DNA from: Cupriavidus necator
GTDB taxonomy: Bacteria > Pseudomonadota > Gammaproteobacteria > Burkholderiales > Burkholderiaceae
Assembly: GCF_016127575.1 (NCBI RefSeq)
Contig: NZ_CP066018.1
Span: 540,001 to 572,000 of the forward strand
DNA: 32,000 nt
Direction: 5' to 3'
The notes under the pieces are model-generated. The model had not been told where the DNA came from, made no database searches, and saw only the letters and a list, made by a program, of their open reading frames with translations. The position numbers and the translations under genes were made by a program. Shown one piece after another: positions 1-23,720 of this stretch (its first letter is position 1; each line of letters starts with the position of its first letter).

Positions 1-297
1 CTCCAGCCGACGCTGGCGGGCTTTGCCGAACCCAGTTCGTTCCGGCATTTCCTGCAGTGCCTGCGGACGCAAGCCCGCGCGGCCTCGCTGGGTTCATTCG
101 AGAGCACGCTATCCAGTTACCGCCAGGCGCTCGACGCCGCCCAAGCAGTGCTCGAGCGCCTGGATAAAAAGTCCGTCTCAAGCAAGCAACGCAACATCCT
201 GGCCAGCGAATGCATCGATGCCGTCCGCGCTGGCCTGCATGTCCTCGAACGGAACCACGGCCCTCGCCTGCGCAGGCTTTGGGGAAGACTGTCATAG
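1..297 (+). CDS. 3' end of an unidentified protein-coding gene (5' part lies outside the window)
   Basis: Frame 1 is open from nt 1 to TAG 295-297 (98 codons, checked codon by codon). Third positions are mostly G/C and the peptide looks helical (...LDAAQAVLERLDKKSVSSKQRNILASECIDAVRAGLHVLERNHG...). It is absent from the ORF track because there is no start inside the window. Preferred over track ORF 23..337 (TTG start, other frame, Arg/Pro/Ser-rich). Confidence 0.45.
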   Translation, partial: LQPTLAGFAEPSSFRHFLQCLRTQARAASLGSFESTLSSYRQALDAAQAVLERLDKKSVSSKQRNILASECIDAVRAGLHVLERNHGPRLRRLWGRLS

Positions 298-355
298 CCA
301 GCGCGACCCGCTTGTCCATGCGCAGCGGTTGACCTAAGCGCGCGTCCCCGATGAC

Positions 356-379
356 GCGGTGGTGGTCAAACGCCACCGC
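356..379 (+). other. stem-loop between the upstream partial gene and the RT gene (7-bp stem GCGGTGG/CCACCGC, 10-nt loop)
   Basis: GCGGTGG (356-362) pairs with CCACCGC (373-379). No U-run follows, so it is not a canonical intrinsic terminator. Confidence 0.2.
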
Positions 380-468
380 CCCCCTGACCTACCTGGCGAC
401 GCGCGGCTTGCCGATCGCCCGGCTCCGCCGCCGACGCCCTTTGCCCGGCGCCCGACACAGCCCAAGTC

Positions 469-3400
469 ATGACGAGTTCGAAATATCAGTTTCTGGCGCC
501 CACGGTGGCGCTCCTTTCCGACAAGGTCGTACTGGCCCAGGCCTGGAAGAAAACGCACACCTATATCCGCAAACATAACTGGTTTGCCGACACGCTCGAA
601 CTCGACACGTCGGCGGTCGATCTTGAGCAAACCTTGGAACAGTGGGCGCAAACGCTGCGCACAGGCCAATATCTTAACCAGGCGGCCAGGATGGTTCCCG
701 CACCCAAAAGCGGCCGCTGGGTCATCGGCACCGTGCCCCAGCGGCCAGAGCCTGGCTGGTATCCCGTGGTCGACCCCGGTGAAGCGCCCGTTCTCCGGCC
801 ACTCGCGCATCTTCCCGTCCGGGAGCAGACCGTGGCCAGTGCCCTCATGCTCTGTCTTGCGGATTGCATCGAAACGCTCCAGGGGCCCACCATCGGGCAT
901 GCCGACTTCGCCGAGGCGCAGCGCATGGGCGTGTACAGCTATGGAAACCGCCTGCTGTGTTCCTGGACCGAGCTCCTGCCGGGGACGAAACATGCCCGGT
1001 TTCGTTGGGGCAACTCCGACATCTACACGCGATACTTCACCGACTATCAGCGATTCATCGACCGGCCCAAGTACTTTGCCGAACAGGCGCGCGACAAGGG
1101 TGGCACCGTGCTGCTCGTCAAGCTGGATCTGTCCGCTTTCTACGACAACATCGACGTTGGACGACTAATCGAGTCCCTGCGGCGACACTATGCGAAGTTT
1201 TGCGAAACATTTCCTGATTATCCCAAGCACGACGAGGATTTCCTCGCGGTGGCGCGCGAAGCCCTGACGCTGCGCTGGGATCCTCAGGACTCGACCTATG
1301 CGCCCCTGCTACGCGACCGCGCTCTACCCAGAGGTCTGGCGCAGGGTCTGGCCGCCAGCGGCTTCTTTGCCAACGCCTACCTGATCGACTTCGACAAGGA
1401 AATTGGACGTCAGCTCAACACCGCGATTCACTTCGAAGGAGACGAGTTCACTCTGGTGGACTACTGTCGGTACGTCGATGATCTGCGTATCGTCGTCTCG
1501 GTCGACGCCAGGCTGCCGCACACACACATCCCTGGCGTGATTACCCAATGGGTCCAGCGTATCCTGGACGTGACGGTGAACGAGCATGTCGAGGACGACC
1601 GCAACGTTCTGAAACTGAACGCACGCAAGACCGAGCACGAAGAGTTCGCGGCCGTCAGCGCGGAAAGTGGCGATGTGGCGGCCATGCGCCTGCTGCAGCA
1701 AAGCCTGAGTGGCCCGTTTGATCTGGAATCGCTCCAACAGACCTCGGCGGGCCTGAACGGCCTTCTCGCACTGGCCGAACTCAGCCGCGAGGCCGAGACA
1801 AGCGCTCCCTCGTCTTCGCCCTTGTCCCTCATCGAACGGCCCAAGCTACAGGTCAAGGACGATACGCTGACGCGGTTTGCAGCGTTTCGCCTTGTCAAAA
1901 GCCTGCGACTGAAGATGAGCTTTCTGGGCGAGGAGGCGGCCGGTGTCGCGCACGAATGCGAAGCCGTCGCGCGTCGCCTCGCGGCCGCCTGGGTCACGAA
2001 TCCCGCCCTGGTGCAAGTGCTTCGCTACGCGTTCGGGATCTACCCGGCCGCCGACATCCTGCTCCCGGTACTCGAAGCGCTGCGCGACAAGCTCGACTGC
2101 CCGGTCGCGTTCGAGCGCCTCGTGGCCCAATACGTGCTTGCCGAACTCTTCCGGTCCGGGGCCACCGAGATTGGCTGGGATAGCGATGCCGGGCCCGGGC
2201 CGGATGTCGAGCACTTCCGGGACGCGCTGGCGGCCACCGCACATCAACTGCTGAATCGACGCGATTCCCCGTGGTACCTCCAGCAACAAGCCTCGCTCTT
2301 CCTGACGGTAACTGGTCGGCCGCTTGCGCCGCCCGAAGGAACGCCCGAGCTGCATCGTCACGCGATCGTTGCCGGACTGGTACAGGGCCATCCCGGCCCG
2401 GCACAGACCCTCCCGGCCGGCGACTTCGTTGCCCTCAGCTATGTCGCCTACCAGATCACGGGGTCGCAAGCGAATTTCAAGCGCGGGATCCAGGCCTGGT
2501 CCAAGGGGCGAAATCAGGAAGCGCTGCGGCTGGCGCGCGAGCTGTTGCGTCAGACCGATAGCGAACTGTACGACTACTGCTTCGCGCGCCCACCACGCCC
2601 AAGGCAACGCACACCAGCCGATATCACCGGTGCTGGAGACCACACGCGCCCTTCGGGTCCCCCTCTGCGCAACAGCGTCTGGCTGCCTTTGCAGGTGGTC
2701 TTCTGCCGCGCTCACAATCCGCTCCGCCAGGAGAATGCGCTGCTGAAGCTGGCGCTTGGCCTGGTGCGCTGTATGCGGAAAGCCGATACGCCCGAACAAC
2801 TGCGACCGGACTTCATTCAGGTCCGCTGTGCCGATTGGGACAGACTATCCCATCCGCACGTTCACCTTGAAGTCAGCCCCTCGTTGCGGAAATCGCGCGA
2901 AACCCTGAACGCGCTCTATACCACGCCAGAATGGTGTGAGGGATTTGCGGCGTGGACCTACGCACTGGGCCGCGTGCTACGCGCCGCCGCCCTAGGCAAC
3001 GTCGACTTCACCAGTCGCCGCTATGTGCTCGCCGGGGAGCCAAGCCCTTACACAGGCATTCGCTCGACCTGGCAGAAACGCCGCTTCGGCATGCATCATG
3101 CGTCCGGCTCGATTACCGGCCACGACGCCTCCGTCACCCCATGGTTCAGCGAACTGCTGTTGCAGCTCCTGCGATGGCCCGGCCTCGAAGTCGAGAGTCC
3201 ACTGATCCCGCAGGCTGCCGCTATCGAGTCCTTCGACATACTGGAAACGATACTCTATGAACGGTTACAGGGGCAGAACGCCATTTTCGGACGCAGCTCC
3301 ATGGTGCCAGTCTATCGCTTTCCGGTTCAGTTCCCCTTGCGGCGCGAGTCTCGCCTTCGCGTCGTGGTGGTACAGGGTCTGCTGCCGCAAGCTTCGCACT

Positions 3401-4245
3401 TCACGGAGTTTGGTAAGTGTCTGGACGGTAGCGACTACAGAGCCTGGCATCGGCAACACCTCGGCCTTTTGAGTGTCCTGATCAACCGGCACGTACGTAC
3501 GCTCGCTCACGCAAAAGCAGAACCTGGCGAGGAAGCGGAGGGGCGGCCTTTCGTGGACCTCATCGTGTTCCCCGAGCTTTCCGTTCATGTCGAGGATTTC
3601 GATCTGCTACGTGCCCTGTCGGACGCAACGGGCGCCATCATCTATGCCGGCATGGTAGGAGAGCTGTCGCCAATAACGAGGGCACCGATCAATGTTGCCA
3701 AGTGGATCATCCCTCAGCGACGGGAAACGGGCCGGTCATTCCTCGTCATCAACCAGGGCAAGTTTCATCTTACAAAGGACGAGCGGGAGATAGGAATGGA
3801 GTCATGGCGGCCGTATCAGGCTATCATCGAGCTCCGCAGCGGGAGTCGCACCTACGCCATCAGCGGCGCCATCTGCTATGACGCCACGGACATCGCCCTC
3901 GCTGCCGACTTGCGCGACCAGTCCCACATGTTCGTGGTCGCCGCCATGAACAAGGACATCAAGACGTTCGATGGCATGATTAGCGCGCTCCGCTTCCACA
4001 TGTATCAGCATGTGGTACTCGCGAATAGCGGTGAATATGGAGGCTCCACGACCCAGGCCCCCTACTCCAAGGAGCACCATCGCGTCGTGAGTCACATGCA
4101 TGGCGGCCAGCAGATCGGGATCAGCGTTTTCGAGGTCGAGACGGACGACTTTGGTCCGGGTGGCAAGGCCTTCCCGAGCTCCGGAACAGGGAATGGCAAG
4201 ACGCCACCGGCGGGACTGCGGCGAGTTCCATGGGGCACCACTTAA
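469..4245 (+). CDS. reverse transcriptase fused to a helical-repeat region and a C-terminal nitrilase (C-N hydrolase) domain; UG/Abi class 1, DRT1-like defence-associated RT
   Basis: 1258-codon ORF, ATG 469, TAA 4243-4245. RT motif A is LVKLDLSAFYDNID (Asp codon 1126-1128). Motif B is LPRGLAQGLAASGFFANAYL. Motif C is YCRYVDDLRIV (YVDD = nt 1471-1482). Motif D/E is LKLNARKTE. Roughly aa 450-950 are Leu/Ala-rich and helical. The C-terminal part has a nitrilase-superfamily triad context: LIVFPELS (Glu 3574-3576), NQGKFHL (Lys 3760-3762), ISGAICYDATD (Cys 3874-3876). Confidence 0.9.
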   Translation: MTSSKYQFLAPTVALLSDKVVLAQAWKKTHTYIRKHNWFADTLELDTSAVDLEQTLEQWAQTLRTGQYLNQAARMVPAPKSGRWVIGTVPQRPEPGWYPVVDPGEAPVLRPLAHLPVREQTVASALMLCLADCIETLQGPTIGHADFAEAQRMGVYSYGNRLLCSWTELLPGTKHARFRWGNSDIYTRYFTDYQRFIDRPKYFAEQARDKGGTVLLVKLDLSAFYDNIDVGRLIESLRRHYAKFCETFPDYPKHDEDFLAVAREALTLRWDPQDSTYAPLLRDRALPRGLAQGLAASGFFANAYLIDFDKEIGRQLNTAIHFEGDEFTLVDYCRYVDDLRIVVSVDARLPHTHIPGVITQWVQRILDVTVNEHVEDDRNVLKLNARKTEHEEFAAVSAESGDVAAMRLLQQSLSGPFDLESLQQTSAGLNGLLALAELSREAETSAPSSSPLSLIERPKLQVKDDTLTRFAAFRLVKSLRLKMSFLGEEAAGVAHECEAVARRLAAAWVTNPALVQVLRYAFGIYPAADILLPVLEALRDKLDCPVAFERLVAQYVLAELFRSGATEIGWDSDAGPGPDVEHFRDALAATAHQLLNRRDSPWYLQQQASLFLTVTGRPLAPPEGTPELHRHAIVAGLVQGHPGPAQTLPAGDFVALSYVAYQITGSQANFKRGIQAWSKGRNQEALRLARELLRQTDSELYDYCFARPPRPRQRTPADITGAGDHTRPSGPPLRNSVWLPLQVVFCRAHNPLRQENALLKLALGLVRCMRKADTPEQLRPDFIQVRCADWDRLSHPHVHLEVSPSLRKSRETLNALYTTPEWCEGFAAWTYALGRVLRAAALGNVDFTSRRYVLAGEPSPYTGIRSTWQKRRFGMHHASGSITGHDASVTPWFSELLLQLLRWPGLEVESPLIPQAAAIESFDILETILYERLQGQNAIFGRSSMVPVYRFPVQFPLRRESRLRVVVVQGLLPQASHFTEFGKCLDGSDYRAWHRQHLGLLSVLINRHVRTLAHAKAEPGEEAEGRPFVDLIVFPELSVHVEDFDLLRALSDATGAIIYAGMVGELSPITRAPINVAKWIIPQRRETGRSFLVINQGKFHLTKDEREIGMESWRPYQAIIELRSGSRTYAISGAICYDATDIALAADLRDQSHMFVVAAMNKDIKTFDGMISALRFHMYQHVVLANSGEYGGSTTQAPYSKEHHRVVSHMHGGQQIGISVFEVETDDFGPGGKAFPSSGTGNGKTPPAGLRRVPWGTT

Positions 4246-4285
4246 ACGAAGCGTGCCTCAATCCGTGCGCTGGACCAACGTCGCA

Positions 4286-4307
4286 GCAGGAACTCGCGGG
4301 TTCCTGC
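4286..4307 (+). other. perfect 8-bp stem-loop in the RT / 2-TM gene spacer (possible attenuator, processing site or weak terminator)
   Basis: GCAGGAAC (4286-4293), loop TCGCGG, GTTCCTGC (4300-4307). It is followed by GCCAAAAC rather than a U-run. Confidence 0.3.
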
Positions 4308-4362
4308 GCCAAAACGATCGACTATGCCGGCGATCGTCCTAACATCGCCATTTGAATAAGTC

Positions 4363-5241
4363 ATGTCCCTCGTAGGCATCCTCAGTTCGCCATCACAGCG
4401 ACGCAGCTTTTTGCTCCTGTCTAGCATCCTTCTAGCCATCGGCCTCGTGGGCGTCTTTGCGATCGCCTTCTACGCGCCCAACACAGCCGTTTGGAACGCC
4501 GCCAACAGTCTATTCATCTCGATTGTCGCCGGTGGGGTCTTTGCGCTCGCCTCGGGCCTGTATATCCTCTATTTCTTTGTCGATCCCAACGACATGGCCG
4601 CGACCGCCATTCTGCTGCCGCAGGACATCGGTCAGGCACTCGAAGACATTGCGAATAAGGCCACCGATTACAAGATCTTCGTGCGAACCGGCAGGCATTT
4701 TCGAGCCGAAATTCTCCCTTTGCTTGTGAAGCAGGCACGGCGGAATCGGCTTCCGATCCGCGTCGAGATCATTCTCCTCGATTTCCGCGACGACACCCTC
4801 TGCACCAAATATGCAAGCTACCGCAAAACGTCATCCTTTGACCGCCAAGCCTGGAGCGCGCGATACGTGCAGCAAGAGGTGTTGGCGACGATCCTCAAGG
4901 TTATCGAAGTCTCGCGAGACAATCGGGGATTAGTTGACATTCAACTATTTCTCAGCAAGCGCCTGTCGACCTTCCGCATCGAGGGCTCTTCCGACGAGAT
5001 TCTGGTCACCCGGGAGGACCCAAAGGACACTGCCGCTCGCTATCTGCGCAGTCATCGAGACTTTTCGGCATTCGTCAACGAGCTCTCCTGGATACGCGAC
5101 GATGCCTACCGGATTGCAGCCAATGACGATGGGGCTCTCCCCACGACGCTTGCCGCGATGTTCGGAGACGATGCCCCTATCGCAGACATAGAAGCGCAAG
5201 CCGCACGCGCCATGACCTCGGCATCACCTTATGTCCGCTAA
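4363..5241 (+). CDS. membrane protein with two N-terminal TM helices and an uncharacterised ~210-aa soluble C-terminal domain
   Basis: 292-codon ORF. Hydrophobic stretches are FLLLSSILLAIGLVGVFAIAFYA and LFISIVAGGVFALASGLYILYFFV (about nt 4408-4581). The remainder is a mixed charged/hydrophobic globular-looking sequence. Same strand as the RT, 117 nt downstream. I recognised no family motif. Confidence 0.7.
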   Translation: MSLVGILSSPSQRRSFLLLSSILLAIGLVGVFAIAFYAPNTAVWNAANSLFISIVAGGVFALASGLYILYFFVDPNDMAATAILLPQDIGQALEDIANKATDYKIFVRTGRHFRAEILPLLVKQARRNRLPIRVEIILLDFRDDTLCTKYASYRKTSSFDRQAWSARYVQQEVLATILKVIEVSRDNRGLVDIQLFLSKRLSTFRIEGSSDEILVTREDPKDTAARYLRSHRDFSAFVNELSWIRDDAYRIAANDDGALPTTLAAMFGDDAPIADIEAQAARAMTSASPYVR

Positions 5242-5863
5242 GCCTAGCTTCCCTTTGGAATGGGATCTGATTCGGGGTGAGCCAGTGACCGCACTTCAAG
5301 CCGCCATCAAGTCATGGCTGATGCGAGCGAAGCCGAACTGTCTGATTCACCCCCACGGCTTTTACGTCGTCATGCTGGGACGCGACGATTCGGCGGAATG
5401 GCGCCTGCATTTCTGGCCTCCCGGACGACGGCCGGTGACCGGAATGCCGGCTTACATCCACACGCACAATTGCCACGTGGACAGCCGGATCATCAAAGGT
5501 GAGATCACGAACATCCTCTATGACGTGGCCGAACGCCCGGCGGACGGGCAACCGCTCTATGAAGTCGACTACATCGGGGATCGATACGCCGCGGCGACGA
5601 GAAACGTTCTTCGGAAGACTGTCAACAGAGTCCAAGCCACGGCACGGGCGCAATGTACGTACGCATGCGGCGACGTGTACCATGTTGAGCGCGATACCTA
5701 TCACCAGGCTATGGTTTCGGAGCAAATCCGCACGGCAACGTTGGTTTGCATGCGTGAACGCTCGCTTGGGCCCGTCAGGGTTGTCGGGCTTGATGGCTAT
5801 CCGGAGATTATCTCTTTCACGCGCAACGAGTATCAATCGCTCGACTTTTGTGAATGGCTTTAG
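5231..5863 (+). CDS. cupin-fold protein resembling cysteine dioxygenase type I (CDO-like metal site)
   Basis: 210-codon ORF. WRLHFWPPG...AYIHTHNCHVDSRIIKGEITNILY parallels the CDO signature (..CW.pG..s.IHDH..shcf.k.L.G.L.E.ly). A further His pair sits in GDVYHVERDTYHQ. ATG 5231 overlaps the upstream stop (TAA 5239-5241) by 11 nt. The antisense ORF 5312..6034 was rejected. Confidence 0.6.
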   Translation: MSAKPSFPLEWDLIRGEPVTALQAAIKSWLMRAKPNCLIHPHGFYVVMLGRDDSAEWRLHFWPPGRRPVTGMPAYIHTHNCHVDSRIIKGEITNILYDVAERPADGQPLYEVDYIGDRYAAATRNVLRKTVNRVQATARAQCTYACGDVYHVERDTYHQAMVSEQIRTATLVCMRERSLGPVRVVGLDGYPEIISFTRNEYQSLDFCEWL

Positions 5864-6258
5864 CAGTGAAAAGCCTTCTCCTCCGTGTTTGGCTTGGTTA
5901 TCATAATCGCCAGCCGATAATTGATGCCGACTCGTGAAGATCAATCCGGCTGCATCTCCTGGCGTGCTCTGGCTTCGTGCGGCCGCACTTGCTTGATCCG
6001 ACTCCAGCCCCCGGGTGCGGCCTTGAATTTCCAACGGATCTCAAGGCCGATAGTTCTCTCTCAGCTATCGGATGTCAACGAGAATCGAACGACACGGACG
6101 GGTAGTCTACAGCTTGTGTCCGAGTAGCGGAACTGCCTGACGTTCAGGCACTTATCGGTCAGGGATCGACGCTACGCAACGCGTAGACGATCGTTGCTCC
6201 AGCCGTTTCCAGGCCGTGTACTCCTCCTTGGCATTTTTTTCACCGTCAACGAATTGCC

Positions 6259-7446
6259 ATGTCACTTCCCACCGATTTCGTTGCTGCGCTCGACTGCCCA
6301 CCGTTCGCCGAGATCCTCGCAGAGTTGCGACGCAAGGATCGAGCACCCAAGTCGACGTTTCTTACCCTCAGAAACGAGGTCGCACCAAGCGATCTGTACT
6401 GCTATTTCCGCGCTCGATTTGGTCTTCCGAATGGCCCACAGAATTTTTTGCGGAATGACAGCTCGGACAACCTGATCCACTGGGAATGGATGCTACGGAC
6501 GTCCACCGGTTGGGTGCTGTTCCAAGGGACGAACTTCCGGACGATCGTCCTCCTTCTTGACACTCACGGCATCAGCCAAGCCGACATGCCAGCCCTGGCC
6601 ACTCAGATCAAGGCCGATTTCGCGGGTCACGGCAAGCAGATGGCTCAGTTGCGAAAGTCGCTCGAAGACTGGACCGAGTTCGTGAATCCGTATCAGCGGA
6701 TCCGCAGTTCAGTCAACTCGCTCCTCCGCGAACTGGACGCTTTGAACCTTTGCCCCGAAGATGAGGCAATCCCGGACATCACGAGCGCCCACCAGGAGCT
6801 TGACACCGACTGGTCTGAGGTGGCCGCAAGATACTCAAAGGGCCTTGGCCTATGCTTCGGCATCCGATCGATGCTCCCGGTAATGGCCGAAGCTTTCGTC
6901 AATCTCCTGCTGTTCGCCCTCATGCGGCCCGAACTAAAATCCGACGAGAGACTGCGAGACAACGCGATCCGCCAGCCCATCGACGTTCGCATCAAAAGTC
7001 TCTCCATGACCTGCATCGGCTTCGCGTCTCCAGTGGACTACAAGCATGCAGCGTTCAAGGCGTATCACACCCTGATGAATGAGAGAAACGACCTGCTTCA
7101 TGGCAATGTTGTACTTGAGAAACTCAAGTTTAATGAGGTCTATTTCAACGGCCGCGCTCCCATCTTCAAGCACTACAGATCGCTATGGGAGCGCACAGTC
7201 GGTGTCGATATTCAGGCTGTTGGCCTGCACCGACTGGCGCACGAAGTCCAGGTCGTAGACAGCATGTTGGCTCAGTTGAAGACTCACCTTACTCCGACGA
7301 CACGCAAGTTCATCGAACAAGTGTCTGAGCAACGCGACCTTGCCGTTGACGAAGGGAGGGGAAAGTTCGGTGTGCTGTTCTCCCGGCGGCTCGTCGACAT
7401 GCTCGTGCCAGGCGGCAGTGAAGCCGACCCGGTTATTGTGTCCTAA
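6259..7446 (+). CDS. hypothetical protein with an Rx4H HEPN-like motif (putative RNase-type effector)
   Basis: 395-codon ORF with coding-like composition. YHTLMNERNDLLHGNV contains R-N-D-L-L-H (Arg 7084-7086, His 7099-7101). This matches the HEPN consensus Rx4-6H with the typical polar Asn after Arg, inside a helical C-terminal half. The call rests on this motif only. Confidence 0.65.
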   Translation: MSLPTDFVAALDCPPFAEILAELRRKDRAPKSTFLTLRNEVAPSDLYCYFRARFGLPNGPQNFLRNDSSDNLIHWEWMLRTSTGWVLFQGTNFRTIVLLLDTHGISQADMPALATQIKADFAGHGKQMAQLRKSLEDWTEFVNPYQRIRSSVNSLLRELDALNLCPEDEAIPDITSAHQELDTDWSEVAARYSKGLGLCFGIRSMLPVMAEAFVNLLLFALMRPELKSDERLRDNAIRQPIDVRIKSLSMTCIGFASPVDYKHAAFKAYHTLMNERNDLLHGNVVLEKLKFNEVYFNGRAPIFKHYRSLWERTVGVDIQAVGLHRLAHEVQVVDSMLAQLKTHLTPTTRKFIEQVSEQRDLAVDEGRGKFGVLFSRRLVDMLVPGGSEADPVIVS

Positions 7447-8212
7447 TTTGGGGACGACCGGGTTCGACAGCGAACTAAGCGTCGTTCGCGATCTCCCCAA
7501 GGCAACTCGCCTTCGAGCAAGCCTGATCTGCCTCTCGCAATCATCGCAATCAATTGGCGAGGATCATGCAGCAAGGGGCACCGAGAGCTTCGGCATCCGA
7601 ACGGCTTAATGACCGGGGGACGGCCAACAGCGCCGTTCTCTGCCTCGCCATGACTTACAGTAGCCGCTGCGAAGCAGATGCTGGTAAACGAAACGCGGTA
7701 CAGCAGGAATGGGCAGTAGAGACTGCCGCCCTTCCCTTTCGGCCGCATGTCTGATTCCAGGACCGTCATTCGCACCTACTTAGATGGGTGGCCGCAGTGG
7801 CTTCTACATCGGACCATTGAGATAAGGGGGGATATCGCAACGGCTCAAGGCCGACTTCCGGCTAGGGACACCCCGCTCTAACTAGGCTCACAGGCAGCTC
7901 TCGGCCAGTTTGAGACACCGGCTCTCCCATTCTCGATGTCCGAGCTGGCCGATTTTGCGACATTCGGGTCGGACCACACCTATGGCCGCTCCTGGTCCAG
8001 TCCCGTCAATCATCTCACCGCGGCATATGTGGGCCGTGCCAGCCTGCATCAAATGAGAGCACTAACTAATCGAAGCCCTTACGCATGCAGCCCCAAACGG
8101 AATTGTCCTACCCTTCATCGAAGAAGGTCGTTGCGTTCTCCGACGCGCGTGGGCAAGCGTACGCGGCCCGAACGGTTTGCTATTGAGATGAAATTCAAGC
8201 GAGGACAGCGCC

Positions 8213-9478
8213 CTATGGGCACTCGGATACCGCAGGGACACTGCCGAATCGCTGTGTCATCCAGTCCAGTGCAACCGGCAAGCCGAGAAGCAGCCCAGTG
8301 GCGTGTTCGGTCGCGCCGATGGTCCGGAACGCCACGTTGCCACCGCGCGCACACCAGGCGGCAAACAGCTTCTGGTTCTGCCCAAAGGGGATGATCTCGT
8401 CGAGGGTTCCCGCGTACACCAATGCCGGTACGGCAGGCACGCCATTGCCGCTCTGGTTCTGCGCCATGCGCGCCAGCCAGTCGGCGCGGTTCAGGATGGC
8501 TGGAGCCTGGACGAGGACCGAGTCAGACAGGAACGGATAGCTGGCAGTCACGTCAAGCAGGCATTTTGTGCCGCGAAAGTCGGCAATCACCGACTGCCCA
8601 TAGGGTGTGAGGATCGATGAGAGGCCAAGTTCAGGGTAGGCGGCATTCAGGCCCATCAGCGCAATCGGCCCTACCCCGCCGAACGGGCCACCATTAACGT
8701 TCGCATATACATCAGCGATGCTGAATGGCCCAGCTCCTGCGGCAACGCCCCGCACATTCAGACCGGGGGCATATGCGGGCTGCAGTTCGGCCGCGAAAGC
8801 CGCTGCATGGCCACCCTGGGAATAGCCCATGATGCCGACGGGGGCGTTCGCCGACAGGCCCGCCCCGCTCAACTGCTGCGCCGCCAGTGCCGCGTCGAGG
8901 ACGGCTTGCCCTTCGGCCTTGCCGATCCCCCAGGTGTGATCGCCCGGTGTACCAAGACCCTGATAGTCCGTCATCGCGATCGCCCAACCGCGGGCGAGGG
9001 TTGCCGGCGTCGCGCCGGCAATCGTCGCTTCATATTCCGTGCTCAGCGCGTACTGGTGCGAGGGCGCGCAGTTGTCGGCCTGGCCCTGCGTTCCTGGAGC
9101 CCACGCAATAACCGGCCGGGGGCCGGAGAGCCATGGCGTAAAGGGCACCAGCACGGTGCCGGTGATGGCAATCGGCAAGCCATTGACGTCGTTGGACTTG
9201 TACATGACCTGCCAGCCGTAAGCCAGCAATCCAACCGGAATGAATGGACGGGAGCGAATCAGCGTGCCATGGGGCCCGCTCGGCAACGGCTGGGGCGGCG
9301 TGTAGAAGGCATCGCTCCTCGGGTCGTCGAGCGGGCCGGCTAGCGCCGGCGCGCCAGCCAGGACACACAGCGCCATGGCAATCGCCAGGACTGCGCGTGC
9401 CGCGCCCCCGGCAAGGGCCATGCCAGGAGCGCGAGACATTACGCGGATCCACAACGGTCTTGCAGTACGACGAGTCAT
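8213..9478 (-). CDS. secreted lipase/esterase (secretory-lipase LIP-like alpha/beta hydrolase)
   Basis: 421 codons. The nucleophile elbow is VGIMGYSQGGHAAAF (GxSxG). The N-terminus MTRRTARPLWIRV...AMALCVLAGAPALAG looks like an Arg-rich signal peptide. AGGAGA lies 6 nt upstream of ATG 9478. Confidence 0.85.
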   Translation of the reverse strand: MTRRTARPLWIRVMSRAPGMALAGGAARAVLAIAMALCVLAGAPALAGPLDDPRSDAFYTPPQPLPSGPHGTLIRSRPFIPVGLLAYGWQVMYKSNDVNGLPIAITGTVLVPFTPWLSGPRPVIAWAPGTQGQADNCAPSHQYALSTEYEATIAGATPATLARGWAIAMTDYQGLGTPGDHTWGIGKAEGQAVLDAALAAQQLSGAGLSANAPVGIMGYSQGGHAAAFAAELQPAYAPGLNVRGVAAGAGPFSIADVYANVNGGPFGGVGPIALMGLNAAYPELGLSSILTPYGQSVIADFRGTKCLLDVTASYPFLSDSVLVQAPAILNRADWLARMAQNQSGNGVPAVPALVYAGTLDEIIPFGQNQKLFAAWCARGGNVAFRTIGATEHATGLLLGLPVALDWMTQRFGSVPAVSECP

Positions 9479-21008: not shown

Positions 21009-23720
21009 ATGTCAGCAGGAGACCCTGGCTTGGCCCCCGATCGCCTTCTTATCCCCACCAAGTTCGCGCCGCCGCGCATCAGCCCGCAGTCCACGCCGCG
21101 GGCCAAGCTGCTGGCGCGGCTGCTGGATTCGCGCGACAGCCGGCTGACGCTGGTGTGCGGCAGTGCGGGCTTCGGCAAGACGACCTTGCTGGCCCAGTGG
21201 CGCCAGCAGTTGCTCAAGGACGGGGAACTGGTCTGCTGGCTGTCCCTGTCACCGGACGAGCGGCACTTGCCGCAGTTTCGCGCCTATCTGACCGGCGCAC
21301 TGCAGCAGGCAGGACTGCCCGTCGATGACGGAACTGCCCTTGCCTCTGAGGTGCGTGCCGATCTGCCGGTTGCAGGACTGATCGCGACCATCGTTGACGC
21401 GGTGTGCCAGCGACGCCAGGAAGTGTTCCTCTTCATCGACGACTATCATCACGTCGACGACAGCGACACCCATGCGCTGATCCAGGGTCTGGTGGATCAC
21501 GGGCCCGAGACCCTGCACCTGATCCTGGCCTCACGGACCCATCCACCGCTTGCCGTAAGCCGCCAGCGCCTGACCGGGGAGCTGTCGGAGATCACCTTCC
21601 CCGACCTGCCGTTCGATTTCGCGGAAACGCAGGACTTCCTGGCCAAGCACCTCGGCGACGTCGTGCCGGACGATGCGCGCCTGATCCACGACATCACCGA
21701 CGGGTGGCCGGTTTGCCTGCAGATGATCTGCATCCGGCTCAAGCGCAGCCCGGCCAACCGGGACGTGCTGTCTCAGATGCTGCATCGCCGCACGGATCTG
21801 CAGCGCTATCTTTCCGAAGACGTGGTGCGCCATCTGGCGCCAGACGTCACCGACTTCATCGAGAAGCTCTCGGTCTTGCGCCGCTTCAATGCCGATCTGG
21901 CGCAACACGTCACAGCCAATGCAAAGGCCCCCGCGCTGCTCGACCAGATCGAGCGTGAAAACCTCTTCCTGTTGCCGGCCGAGCTCGACAGCCCCCAGCC
22001 GTGGTACCGATTTCATCCGCTTTTCGCAAGCTTCCTCCAGGACCAGCTGCAACAGCGCGATCCTGCGCTGATGCGCGAGATCCATGCGCGGGCCAGCCAG
22101 TGGTTCGAGCAACGCGGCCTCCTGATTGAAGCGCTACGTCACGCCTATCACGCGCACGACACCGAGGCCGCGGTGCACTTGGTCGAGCGGGCTGACCTGC
22201 CAATCCGCAGCATGAGCTTCTTCAGCACGCTGCAACACTGGATGGACGAACTTCCGGCCGATATGCTGCTGGGCCATCCCCGGCTGCTGCTCCTCGGTTG
22301 CTGGGCACTGGTAGCCGCGGGCCGCTGGCGCGACGCGCAGGGCTGGCTTGAGCGGCTGGAGAAGACGCCGCGCACGCTGGCGCCGGGACTTGCCTTGCAC
22401 GCGCTCTATCTGCGGGCCAGCATCGCGCTGCAACGCGACGACACCGAAGCCGCATTGGCCCTCGTGGCGCCGTCGGACTTCGAAAGCCTGACCGATCGCT
22501 TCCTGCGCCAGGCGCACCTGGCTGTGCTCAGTTTTTCCTATTGCGCGGCCGGGCGGTACGAGGACGCCCGCTCGCTCCACGAGCACATCGCGCGGTTGCC
22601 ACGCTCCGAGCTTCAGGATGACATGGCCCTGGTGGCCGAATCGACCCTGCTGCTCAGCCACCTGCTCGAGGGCAACAATCGCGAGGCCATCCGGACCGGC
22701 AGCGCCCTGGTGGCGCGCGCCGAGGCAGCGCACGGCCGGCGTTCGGTGTCGGCCGTCAACAGCGCGGCATTCCTCGCCAACGCGTATTACGAGGCCGACC
22801 TGCTGGCCGAGGCGAACGAAGTGCTGGCCAACCGGCTCGATTTGCTGCGTCTCTCCTCGCCCGAGCCGATGACGCTTGCGATCATCGTCCGCAGCCGCCT
22901 GATGGCGACGCAGGCATCGGCAGCGCAGGGACTGCACGCGCTGAGCGAGGAGGAAGTCCGCTGCCGCGAGCTGGCATTGGATCGGCCTTTGGCCTATGTG
23001 CTGGCCGGACAAGCGCGGTTGGAACTCCAGTTGAACCATCAGGATGCCGCCCGGAAGCTGCAGACCGAACTTGACCGATTGGCCAGCCGCTATCGCTACG
23101 GAACGGGTTTCCTCGCCGAGATCGAGGCGATCGCGGCCCTGACCGGAGCCCGGCTGGCGCTGGCCGGCATGGACTGGAACGAAGCGCTGGCGCGCGCAGA
23201 AACGCTGCGCAACTACGGTGTGGCATACGGGCGGCAAAAATGTGTGGTGCAGGCCGACTTGCTGGCGGGCACCGCCCTTGCTGAAATGGACGAGGCTACC
23301 GAAGCCATGCGTCTTCTGCGGGCTGCTGTCGAAGCAGCCCAGAGACTAGGGCTCGTTCGCACGTTGCTCGATGAAGGCGAGCGCGTGCGGCAGGCCTTGC
23401 AGCAACTGCAGCCCACGCTTGGCCCCGGCTCCGGCGGCGACTATCTGGTCGAGGTCCTGCGCCGCGGTGTCGCGGCGCATACGCCGGTTCAGCAGGCCGG
23501 TGAGCCCGACGCGCAGGCGAACGGCCCCGAGCTCAAGCCGCGCGAGATTGAAATCCTGCGCCTGGCCGCGGAGTCCATGTCGAACAAGCGGATCGCACTG
23601 ACCCTCAACCTCACGTTGGACACAGTGAAGTGGAACATGAAGAACGTGTTCGAGAAGCTGGGGGTTCCGAGCCGCTACGACGCGGTGATCGCCGCGCGCA
23701 GGCGTGGCCTGATCGACTGA
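21009..23720 (+). CDS. large ATP-binding LuxR-family (LAL/MalT-like) transcriptional regulator
   Basis: 903 codons. Walker A is VCGSAGFGKTTLL and Walker B-like is VFLFIDDYHHV. A long helical/TPR-like middle follows. The C-terminal LuxR HTH is EIEILRLAAESMSNKRIALTLNLTLDTVKWNMKNVFEKLGV. Confidence 0.9.
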   Translation: MSAGDPGLAPDRLLIPTKFAPPRISPQSTPRAKLLARLLDSRDSRLTLVCGSAGFGKTTLLAQWRQQLLKDGELVCWLSLSPDERHLPQFRAYLTGALQQAGLPVDDGTALASEVRADLPVAGLIATIVDAVCQRRQEVFLFIDDYHHVDDSDTHALIQGLVDHGPETLHLILASRTHPPLAVSRQRLTGELSEITFPDLPFDFAETQDFLAKHLGDVVPDDARLIHDITDGWPVCLQMICIRLKRSPANRDVLSQMLHRRTDLQRYLSEDVVRHLAPDVTDFIEKLSVLRRFNADLAQHVTANAKAPALLDQIERENLFLLPAELDSPQPWYRFHPLFASFLQDQLQQRDPALMREIHARASQWFEQRGLLIEALRHAYHAHDTEAAVHLVERADLPIRSMSFFSTLQHWMDELPADMLLGHPRLLLLGCWALVAAGRWRDAQGWLERLEKTPRTLAPGLALHALYLRASIALQRDDTEAALALVAPSDFESLTDRFLRQAHLAVLSFSYCAAGRYEDARSLHEHIARLPRSELQDDMALVAESTLLLSHLLEGNNREAIRTGSALVARAEAAHGRRSVSAVNSAAFLANAYYEADLLAEANEVLANRLDLLRLSSPEPMTLAIIVRSRLMATQASAAQGLHALSEEEVRCRELALDRPLAYVLAGQARLELQLNHQDAARKLQTELDRLASRYRYGTGFLAEIEAIAALTGARLALAGMDWNEALARAETLRNYGVAYGRQKCVVQADLLAGTALAEMDEATEAMRLLRAAVEAAQRLGLVRTLLDEGERVRQALQQLQPTLGPGSGGDYLVEVLRRGVAAHTPVQQAGEPDAQANGPELKPREIEILRLAAESMSNKRIALTLNLTLDTVKWNMKNVFEKLGVPSRYDAVIAARRRGLID

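What the first reader, a model, noticed from the sequence alone, without database searches (positions are those of the whole stretch)
469..4245. 1258-aa reverse transcriptase / helical-repeat / nitrilase fusion
Seen directly:
- a complete RT palm motif set, with motif A Asp at 1126-1128 and YVDD at 1471-1482;
- a ~500-aa helical middle region;
- a C-terminal domain with the nitrilase-superfamily Glu (FPE, 3574-3576), Lys (GKFHL, 3760-3762) and Cys (AICYD, 3874-3876).

Established knowledge: RT-nitrilase fusions with an alpha-repeat domain are class 1 UG/Abi reverse transcriptases. The UG1 type was named DRT type 1 and shown to protect against phage (Gao et al. 2020; Mestre et al. 2022). The role of the nitrilase domain and the nature of any RT product remain unclear for this class.

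All catalytic residues appear intact here. Which UG group this protein belongs to cannot be decided by eye.
Basis: partly seen in the sequence, partly recalled or inferred. Interest (0 to 1): 0.75.

Follow-up and report, generated by a model that had tools for sequence, protein, structure and literature searches.

The report
DRT1 antiphage reverse transcriptase-nitrilase gene
This is an intact copy of the known bacterial antiphage gene DRT1 (a reverse transcriptase fused to a helical domain and a nitrilase) in the chromosome of Cupriavidus necator H16; it keeps every residue that matters in the recently solved DRT1 structure, so it is an ordinary new member of a known family.

Summary
The protein matches the PADLOC Drt1a model end to end (1306 bits). 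It also matches the cryo-EM DRT1 structure 9YFD end to end (E = 6e-176, 33% identity).

In a 110-sequence family alignment the following are invariant or nearly so:
- the RT aspartates;
- the priming serine (S414 = 9YFD S402);
- the nitrilase tetrad E1036-K1098-E1105-C1136;
- the C-terminal lid residues K1244 and A1248.

It is therefore UG1/DRT1.

Neville et al. (NSMB 2026) showed template-free, protein-primed, A-rich ssDNA adducts that assemble dormant filaments, with the nitrilase as the abortive-infection effector.

No drt1b partner is present, so this is the stand-alone form, as at most DRT1 loci. The downstream membrane protein belongs to an unrelated two-gene cassette. The gene lies in a defence island of C. 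necator H16 chromosome 1, next to a PD-T4-6-like kinase.

Verdict: real, intact, a new member of a known kind, low interest.

The parts
469..4245 (+). drt1 (drt1a) gene, 1258 aa. It is identical to the NCBI protein 'RNA-directed DNA polymerase [Cupriavidus necator]'.
   Evidence: ORF. PADLOC Drt1a 1306 bits, profile positions 5-1176 of 1176. 9YFD E = 6e-176 over residues 3-1252. 100% identical database protein P0001. Sequence conservation with the 80% and 72% relatives begins at the ATG.
469..1656 (+). N-terminal region plus reverse-transcriptase domain (about aa 1-396).
   Evidence: RVT_1 matches aa 201-363. Foldseek matches AbiA, GsI-IIC RT, DRT4/6/9, AbiK and UG15. Identity to 9YFD here is 36%.
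1126..1128 (+). RT motif A aspartate, D220.
   Evidence: It aligns to 9YFD D212. The column is D in 110/110.
1471..1482 (+). RT motif C, Y335-V-D-D338.
   Evidence: D337/D338 align to 9YFD D324/D325, whose D-to-N mutant abolishes defence (PMC13275509). Both columns are D in 110/110.
1657..1851 (+). Flexible priming loop (about aa 397-461).
   Evidence: AF2 pLDDT is about 44-68 here. It corresponds to residues 382-478 that are unresolved in 9YFD (PMC13275509).
1708..1710 (+). Predicted protein-priming serine, S414, in the motif Q-x3-S-G-P-F-D.
   Evidence: In the L-INS-i alignment of 110 diverse DRT1 proteins, 9YFD S402 falls on query S414, and the column is S in 110/110. S402 is the mapped priming site, and S402A abolishes defence.
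1861..3288 (+). Alpha-helical repeat domain (about aa 465-940).
   Evidence: AF2 DSSP shows mostly helices. It corresponds to the alpha-helical repeat domain of 9YFD. Identity to 9YFD is 26%.
3310..4140 (+). C-N hydrolase (nitrilase-superfamily) domain (about aa 948-1224).
   Evidence: 9YFD residues 887-1227 align at 250 bits, with 42% identity. AF2 shows alternating strands and helices. Foldseek matches beta-alanine synthase 2vhh/2vhi at E about 4e-4. PADLOC RTasNitrilase scores 338 bits.
3574..3576 (+). Nitrilase catalytic Glu, E1036.
   Evidence: Aligns to 9YFD E1017. Column is E in 110/110.
3760..3762 (+). Nitrilase catalytic Lys, K1098.
   Evidence: Aligns to 9YFD K1077. Column is K in 110/110.
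3781..3783 (+). Probable second Glu of the nitrilase tetrad, E1105.
   Evidence: Aligns to 9YFD E1084. Column is E in 109/110. Its assignment as the fourth tetrad residue (K+7) is my inference from nitrilase knowledge.
3874..3876 (+). Nitrilase catalytic Cys, C1136.
   Evidence: Aligns to 9YFD C1116, and C1116A abolishes defence. Column is C in 109/110.
4198..4212 (+). C-terminal lid motif, K1244-T-P-P-A1248.
   Evidence: K1244 = 9YFD K1219 and A1248 = 9YFD A1223, both essential in 9YFD. Columns are K in 106/110, P in 107/110 and A in 107/110. The tail has low pLDDT in a monomer model, as expected for a domain-swapped segment.
298..468 (+). Upstream intergenic region of 171 nt. It presumably holds the promoter.
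   Evidence: The preceding gene ends at window 297. The DNA is not conserved with the 80% and 72% relatives. There is no Rfam match and no consensus sigma-70 site.

Best explanation
The gene encodes a stand-alone DRT1 (UG1, class 3 UG/Abi) antiphage enzyme of Cupriavidus necator H16.

The mechanism below is inferred from the characterised homologue 9YFD:
1. The RT domain (D220, D337, D338) makes a short, A-rich, semirandom ssDNA. It uses no template and primes on the hydroxyl of Ser414 in a flexible loop.
2. The covalent DNA adduct drives tetramerisation through the nitrilase domains, and the tetramers stack into filaments.
3. In the filament, the C-terminal tail (K1244...A1248) of a neighbouring protomer closes over the nitrilase site (E1036, K1098, E1105, C1136). 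The enzyme is then assembled but dormant.
4. Phage infection releases the lock. In T4 this needs the Dda 5'-3' ssDNA helicase plus other factors.
5. The nitrilase then hydrolyses a still unknown essential C-N compound, which causes abortive infection.

Shown here: family membership, intactness, conservation of every functionally mapped residue, absence of drt1b, and the defence-island context.

Inferred by homology: the DNA synthesis, the filament, the trigger and the defence phenotype.
For: - PADLOC Drt1a scores 1306 bits over the whole profile, ten-fold above any other RT model.
- 9YFD matches at E = 6e-176 by phmmer and 5.6e-272 by family profile.
- The length of 1258 aa is within the 1200-1300 aa given for UG1.
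- All mutationally validated residues of 9YFD are conserved and lie in invariant columns of a 110-sequence alignment: D337/D338, S414, C1136, K1244, A1248 (paper).
- The AF2 model (pLDDT 78.5, pTM 0.76) shows RT, helical and alpha/beta C-N hydrolase parts. The priming loop and C-tail are disordered, as in 9YFD.
- No ncRNA or conserved upstream DNA is present, which fits template-free synthesis.
- Neighbours fit a defence island: a PD-T4-6-like kinase lies upstream (130 bits), and GC falls to 0.54-0.60 in parts of the island against 0.65-0.70 in the flanks.
- Relatives sit next to DUF262-type, HNH, Qat and viperin genes.
Against: - Identity to the only characterised DRT1 is 33%, and 21-26% in the loop and helical domain. 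Details could therefore differ.
- The R1210/Y1215 pair that stabilises the C-terminal pseudoknot in 9YFD is P1230/T1240 here.
- Pfam CN_hydrolase does not detect the C-terminal domain, and RVT_1 falls 0.3 bits below its cut-off.
- Nothing here shows expression or activity in C. necator.
- No paper mentions this gene.
Confidence: 0.85

Rival explanations
1. It is the two-gene form of DRT1 (Drt1a plus the small membrane protein Drt1b). The downstream membrane protein ORF2 (4363..5241) would act as the partner or as a non-homologous substitute.
For: ORF2 lies 117 nt downstream on the same strand and has two N-terminal transmembrane helices. About 18-19% of UG1 loci carry a TM partner.
Against: - Genuine Drt1b proteins are 150-168 aa, overlap the drt1a stop by 4 nt, and score 197 bits on the PADLOC Drt1b model.
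- ORF2 has no PADLOC hit at E <= 0.1 and no similarity to Drt1b. No drt1b-like sequence exists in the window or within 10 kb either side.
- ORF2 always travels with ORF3 as its own pair. That pair occurs without DRT1 in 5 of 5 other genomes examined.
- None of the 15 related DRT1 loci examined has ORF2, ORF3 or ORF4.
Confidence: 0.05
2. DRT1 here is one component of a larger four-gene system with the three upstream genes (241 aa, PD-T4-6-like kinase of 281 aa, 401 aa).
For: The block 241 aa - kinase - 401 aa - DRT1 is kept in the same order in a metagenomic relative (proteins 82%, 80%, 64% and 80% identical), while the genes on both sides of the block differ.
Against: - The 72% relative (L015) and the 12 more distant DRT1 loci lack these genes.
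- PD-T4-6 is a known defence kinase in its own right.
- DRT1 alone is sufficient for defence in E. coli.
- The intergenic DNA between the 401-aa gene and drt1 is not conserved.
Confidence: 0.06
3. It is a UG5-large / DRT11-type RT-nitrilase rather than UG1.
For: The domain order is the same. UG1 is reported to nest within a broader UG5 radiation (PMC13436386). The PADLOC RT_UG5-nitrilase model gives a partial hit.
Against: The UG5 model scores 125 bits over short stretches, against 1306 bits end to end for Drt1a. The length is 1258 aa, against about 1005 aa for DRT11. The DRT1-specific priming serine and C-terminal lid are present.
Confidence: 0.03
4. It is a mobile-retroelement RT (group II intron, retron or DGR), or a decayed relic without function.
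For: Weak RT-domain hits to group II intron, retron and Drt2/3 models.
Against: - Those hits are 27-31 bits, against cut-offs of 200-390.
- There is no Rfam intron, retron or other RNA in the window.
- The ORF is intact with all catalytic residues.
- The protein is identical in 115 contigs.
Confidence: 0.01

Closest known systems
DRT1 of PDB 9YFD (Neville et al., Nat Struct Mol Biol 2026, PMC13275509)
   Same: - Same three-part architecture and similar length (1258 vs 1229 aa), alignable end to end.
- Same RT aspartates, priming serine, nitrilase E-K-E-C, and C-terminal K...PA lid.
- Single-gene form without drt1b.
   Different: - Only 33% identical overall.
- The residues of the C-terminal pseudoknot (R1210, I1212, Y1215) are not kept.
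- The C-terminus carries a 6-residue extension (VPWGTT) after the lid.
- The priming motif reads SGPFD here, against SSIPE in 9YFD.
- Activity is untested.
DRT type 1 / UG1 as defined by Gao et al. 2020 and Mestre et al. 2022 (class 3 UG/Abi)
   Same: A 1200-1300 aa RT with a fused C-terminal C-N hydrolase, in a defence-island setting.
   Different: It lacks the optional TM partner (cluster 85 / Drt1b) found at 33 of 175 loci.
Two-gene DRT1 loci on Pseudoalteromonas shioyasakiensis p1 and Vibrio tubiashii p251
   Same: Drt1a scores 1383-1441 bits on the same model. The proteins are 31-34% identical to this one.
   Different: Those loci carry drt1b (150-168 aa, 4-nt overlap with drt1a). This locus does not.
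UG5-large / DRT11 RT-nitrilase (Sinorhizobium meliloti pSymA, PMC13436386)
   Same: An RT fused to a nitrilase. Both active sites are needed. Defence is abortive-infection-like. It works without a TM partner.
   Different: It belongs to a different UG group, is shorter (1005 aa), and has only a weak model match to this protein.
Protein-priming class 1 Abi polymerases (AbiK, Abi-P2, AbiA)
   Same: [quoted passage not shown] They are among the nearest RT folds by Foldseek.
   Different: They have no nitrilase effector. [quoted passage not shown] They are also a different class.

Membership tests
DRT1 / UG1 (Drt1a) | End-to-end match to the family profile | tested here: met
   PADLOC PDLC03745 Drt1a: 1306.5 bits, protein 8-1250 on profile 5-1176 of 1176. 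The second Drt1a model scores 652 bits.
DRT1 / UG1 (Drt1a) | Length of 1200-1300 aa with the order RT, helical domain, C-N hydrolase | tested here: met
   1258 aa. Domain order from AF2 DSSP, Foldseek and the 9YFD alignment. Size range from Mestre 2022.
DRT1 / UG1 (Drt1a) | RT catalytic aspartates (9YFD D324/D325 and the motif A Asp) | tested here: met
   D337, D338 and D220. All three columns are invariant in 110 sequences.
DRT1 / UG1 (Drt1a) | Conserved priming serine (9YFD S402) | tested here: met
   S414. The column is S in 110/110 in the L-INS-i alignment that includes 9YFD and its 59% and 40% relatives. A cruder alignment had put S402 on E420.
DRT1 / UG1 (Drt1a) | Nitrilase catalytic residues (9YFD C1116 plus Glu/Lys/Glu) | tested here: met
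   E1036, K1098, E1105 and C1136. Columns are 109-110 of 110.
DRT1 / UG1 (Drt1a) | Conserved C-terminal lid residues (9YFD K1219, A1223) | tested here: met
   K1244 and A1248. Columns are 106 and 107 of 110.
DRT1 / UG1 (Drt1a) | Template-free, protein-primed synthesis of A-rich ssDNA adducts | not testable with these tools
   This needs biochemistry. The only support here is conservation of the residues, and the absence of any ncRNA.
DRT1 / UG1 (Drt1a) | DNA-adduct-dependent tetramers and filaments | not testable with these tools
   This needs mass photometry or EM.
DRT1 / UG1 (Drt1a) | Protection against phage by abortive infection | not testable with these tools
   No experiment. No literature on this gene.
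Two-gene DRT1 (Drt1a + Drt1b) | Small TM protein Drt1b encoded immediately downstream | tested here: not met
   Positive controls score 197 bits. ORF2 has no hit at E <= 0.1. tblastn and phmmer find nothing in the window or 10 kb either side.
UG5-large / DRT11 | Best match to the UG5 RT-nitrilase profile | tested here: not met
   125 bits in two short stretches, against 1306 bits for Drt1a.
C-N hydrolase fusions are assigned to class 3. | tested here: not met
   Mestre 2022 text: UG1, UG5 and UG29 are class 3. Neville 2026 says the same. A helical domain is present, but the class assignment is by clade and hydrolase domain.
Nitrilase superfamily (Pfam CN_hydrolase PF00795) | Significant match to the Pfam model | tested here: not met
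   No hit at E <= 0.1. The family profile against PDB finds no canonical nitrilase by sequence.
Nitrilase superfamily (fold level) | C-N hydrolase fold, with the Glu-Lys-Cys triad at the catalytic positions | tested here: met
   Foldseek matches beta-alanine synthase 2vhh/2vhi at E 3.7e-4 to 6.8e-4. There is 42% identity to the 9YFD nitrilase domain, whose tetrad superposes on Rhodococcus nitrilase 8UXU.
Retron / group II intron / DGR RTs | Family-level protein score and an associated structured RNA | tested here: not met
   NCBIfam scores are 27-31 bits, against cut-offs of 235-390. No Rfam match.

The most novel reading that the evidence does not exclude
In C. necator H16, DRT1 may not act alone but be functionally coupled to its neighbours. 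One candidate is the upstream PD-T4-6-like kinase trio, with which it is co-inherited as a four-gene block in a second organism. The other is the downstream membrane-anchored PLD-like protein plus its 210-aa partner, acting as a non-homologous replacement for Drt1b. Either would be a new composite architecture for an RT-nitrilase system.
Probability: 0.06. Interest if true: 0.55.

Novelty: new member of a known kind. Interest (0 to 1): 0.2.

Why it matters
It adds nothing conceptually new. The family, its structure and most of its mechanism are published, and existing defence-finder models detect this gene at full score.

Its modest value is practical:
- It documents an intact stand-alone DRT1, inside a composite defence island, in a genetically tractable industrial model bacterium. 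That host could serve to study DRT1 in a native setting, including the still unknown nitrilase substrate and the phage trigger.
- The invariant S-G-x-F-D priming motif and the K-x-x-P-A lid seen across 110 diverse members confirm that the features mapped in one homologue hold across the family.

Tried and rejected
- **Pfam as arbiter.** RVT_1 scores 29.3 bits, just under its cut-off, and CN_hydrolase is absent. I rejected this as evidence against the finding, because the family-specific profile and the solved structure match end to end.
- **First alignment of the priming site.** The phmmer pairwise alignment and the MAFFT --auto alignment put 9YFD S402 on E420. I rejected this after an L-INS-i alignment with bridging sequences placed it on the invariant S414.
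- **Upstream ncRNA or template.** There is no Rfam hit, no conserved intergenic DNA, and no promoter or terminator signal above shuffles.
- **ORF2 as Drt1b.** Rejected.
- **ORF2, ORF3 or ORF4 as conserved DRT1 partners.** Rejected: they are absent from the 15 related DRT1 loci examined.
- **Upstream kinase trio as an obligatory partner.** Rejected: it is absent from 13 of the 15 related loci examined, and the two that carry it hold the same 80%-identical DRT1.
- **9YFD by Foldseek.** The PDB fold library ends in April 2026 and does not contain it. Sequence search was used instead.
- **Literature on this gene in C. necator.** Nothing found.
- **Mestre 2022 supplementary tables for cluster 85.** Not held.
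- **ORF3 and ORF4 against PDB sequences.** Nothing found.


Full report
**Observation**

The window holds one ATG-started ORF at 469..4245 on the + strand, encoding 1258 aa.
- D220 at 1126-1128;
- Y335-V-D-D338 at 1471-1482;
- E1036 at 3574-3576;
- K1098 at 3760-3762;
- C1136 at 3874-3876.

**Identity**

Against PADLOC, the protein matches the Drt1a model over the whole profile (1306.5 bits; protein 8-1250 on profile 5-1176 of 1176). The next-best different family, RT_UG5-nitrilase, reaches 125 bits in two short stretches.

Pfam is nearly blind to it. RVT_1 scores 29.3 bits against a cut-off of 29.6, and CN_hydrolase gives no hit. NCBIfam gives only sub-threshold RT hits.

The PDB sequence search finds one strong relative, 9YFD, 'Defense-associated reverse transcriptase 1'. 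It matches at E = 6e-176 over residues 3-1252, and at 5.6e-272 with a family profile.

The exact protein is in NCBI as 'RNA-directed DNA polymerase [Cupriavidus necator]'. The next gene downstream is H16_A0879. The locus maps to CP039287 and to a 4.05-Mb chromosome. The window is therefore C. necator H16 chromosome 1.

The family is large. There are 1211 proteins at E <= 1e-10 among the 90%-identity clusters. Among 1.84 billion 50%-identity representatives, 275 score E <= 1e-30. This protein's own lineage is small: relatives at 80% and 72% identity, then a drop to about 47%.

**What is known about the family**

Mestre et al. 2022 put UG1, UG5 and UG29 in class 3 of the UG/Abi RTs. These are the large RTs with a C-N hydrolase. 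They give UG1 a size of 1200-1300 aa, and 33 of 175 members had a TM partner (PMC9226505).

Neville et al. 2026 (PMC13275509) characterised DRT1 biochemically and by cryo-EM:
- DNA synthesis is template-free and protein-primed from Ser402. It gives A-rich adducts of about 17-30 nt.
- The adducts are needed for tetramers and filaments. The RT-dead protein is monomeric.
- The last 19 residues swap between stacked tetramers and close a lid over the nitrilase site. K1219A and A1223F abolish defence.
- D324N/D325N, C1116A and S402A also abolish defence.
- T4 escape mutants map to the Dda helicase, which is necessary but not sufficient.
- DRT1 works without drt1b.
- The nitrilase substrate is unknown.

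**Residue-level test**

I rebuilt the 9YFD sequence from the printed alignments and checked its numbering against the residues named in the paper.

A first MAFFT alignment, and the phmmer pairwise alignment, placed S402 on E420 of the query. That region is disordered and has indels. I therefore collected 50%-identity representatives, including relatives of 9YFD at 59%, 40% and 38% identity, and made an L-INS-i alignment of 110 full-length sequences.

In that alignment 9YFD S402 falls on query S414, and the column is serine in 110/110. It sits in the motif Q-x3-S-G-P-F-D.

| Residue(s) in query | Conservation in 110 sequences |
|---|---|
| D220, D337, D338, E1036, K1098 | invariant |
| E1105, C1136 | 109/110 |
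| K1244 | 106/110 |
| P1247, A1248 | 107/110 |

K1244 and A1248 correspond to 9YFD K1219 and A1223.

Not conserved are the 9YFD residues R1210, I1212 and Y1215 of the C-terminal pseudoknot. These are variable across the family.

Identity to 9YFD is 33% overall:

| Region | Identity to 9YFD |
|---|---|
| RT | 36% |
| Priming loop | 21% |
| Helical domain | 26% |
| Nitrilase | 42% |

**Structure**

AF2 on residues 59-1258 with 60 homologues gave pLDDT 78.5 and pTM 0.76. The layout is:
- a mixed alpha/beta RT region up to about aa 396;
- a low-confidence loop at 397-461 that contains S414;
- helices from about 465 to 940;
- an alpha/beta domain from about 948 to 1224;
- a low-confidence C-terminal tail.

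The two low-confidence parts correspond to the segment unresolved in 9YFD (382-478) and to its domain-swapped tail.

Foldseek against PDB returns AbiA, a group II intron RT, DRT4, DRT6, DRT9, AbiK and UG15 for the RT part. That copy of PDB ends in April 2026 and so lacks 9YFD. For the C-terminal part it returns the nitrilase-superfamily beta-alanine synthase 2vhh/2vhi, at E about 4e-4.

**Partners and context**

No Rfam family matches in the window, and there is no tRNA. The 171-nt upstream spacer is not conserved with the 80% and 72% relatives, whereas conservation starts at the ATG.

The downstream ORF2 (4363..5241, 292 aa) has two TM helices, which raised the question of drt1b. Genuine Drt1b proteins from two plasmid loci are 150 and 168 aa and overlap the drt1a stop by 4 nt. 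They score 197 bits on the PADLOC Drt1b model. ORF2 has no PADLOC hit. No Drt1b-like sequence exists in the window or 10 kb either side.

ORF2 and ORF3 (5231..5863, 11-nt overlap) form their own conserved pair. That pair occurs without DRT1 in 5 of 5 other genomes examined. ORF2, ORF3 and ORF4 are absent from the 15 related DRT1 loci examined.

Upstream in H16 lie radical-SAM genes, a DUF4145 protein, a 241-aa protein, a 281-aa kinase that matches PD-T4-6 (130 bits), and a 401-aa protein whose 3' end is window 1-297. The block 241 aa - kinase - 401 aa - DRT1 recurs in the 80% relative but not in the 72% relative or in the 12 more distant loci.

GC falls to 0.54-0.60 in parts of this island, against 0.65-0.70 in the flanks. 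From 8.2 kb onward the window holds ordinary catabolic genes.

**Conclusion**

The finding is a real, intact, stand-alone DRT1 (UG1, class 3 UG/Abi) in a defence island of C. necator H16. Every residue mapped as functional in the solved homologue is conserved, so the published mechanism is the best explanation. That mechanism has three steps:
- serine-primed, template-free ssDNA adducts form;
- the adducts drive assembly of a dormant filament, lid-locked by the C-terminal tail;
- a phage-triggered nitrilase then causes abortive infection.

Only the sequence-level steps are shown here.

Its interpretation is partly right:
- the class label is wrong;
- the 'unclear role' statement is out of date;
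- the open UG-group question is settled as UG1.

It is a new member of a known kind and of low interest.

Noticed in passing
window 4363-5241 (ORF2, H16_A0879) and 5231-5863 (ORF3): This is a conserved two-gene cassette. The first gene encodes a 292-aa protein with two N-terminal TM helices and a soluble domain whose AF2 model (pLDDT 84) weakly resembles PLD/Nuc-type nucleases (SauUSI, Nuc 1byr, Zucchini; E about 2e-3). It has an invariant R-T-G-R-H-F-R motif. The second gene overlaps it by 11 nt and encodes a ~210-aa His-rich protein (weak phrog_4784 hit). Neither has a Pfam or PADLOC match. The pair recurs in Paraburkholderia, Burkholderia, Pandoraea, Pseudomonas and Mesorhizobium, in variable or defence-like neighbourhoods (MazG/UDG/PLDc, HNH, REase-ARP, methylase plus resolvase). 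It may be an undescribed defence system.
   Followed up: partly
window 6259-7446 (ORF4): A 395-aa protein with no Pfam, PADLOC, PHROG, NCBIfam or PDB-sequence match. It lies in the low-GC part of the island. It contains R-N-D-L-L-H, an Rx4H pattern that could be a HEPN-type motif. That reading is untested speculation.
   Followed up: partly
window 1-297 and upstream (L020 6989-9829): The window starts inside a 401-aa gene of unknown function. This gene is preceded by a 281-aa Ser/Thr kinase matching PADLOC PD-T4-6 (130 bits) and by a 241-aa unknown. The trio plus DRT1 is kept as a block in a metagenomic relative (64-82% identity) while the genes on either side differ.
   Followed up: partly
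L020 4489-6785 (H16, upstream of the window) and L024 270-2542: A radical-SAM gene plus a DUF4145 gene lie a few kb upstream of DRT1 in H16. On a Pseudoalteromonas plasmid, a viperin-family radical-SAM gene plus a DUF4145 gene lie directly upstream of a two-gene DRT1. The proteins are not detectably similar between the two loci, and the H16 radical-SAM protein has no PADLOC hit.
   Followed up: partly
L004 11927-13690 and L008 11962-13728: In two DRT1 relatives (37% identity), the gene directly downstream encodes a ~587-aa protein whose N-terminus looks DUF262/GmrSD-like by eye. This was not scanned. If correct, it is another sign that DRT1 sits in defence islands.
   Followed up: no
window 21009-23720 (+): A 903-aa STAND-type regulator (AAA_16/NACHT-like NTPase, MalT-like TPR, LuxR/GerE HTH). 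It sits amid CoA-ligase, thiolase-like, enoyl-CoA hydratase and acyl-CoA dehydrogenase genes. It is probably the regulator of that catabolic cluster and not a defence gene.
   Followed up: no
window 1-8300, both strands: Many long ORFs overlap drt1 on the opposite strand or in other frames (for example 1846-2799 on the - strand, 317 aa). These are the usual shadow ORFs of GC-rich DNA. The antisense ORF at 334-993 'matches' the relatives only because it mirrors the drt1 coding sequence.
   Followed up: yes
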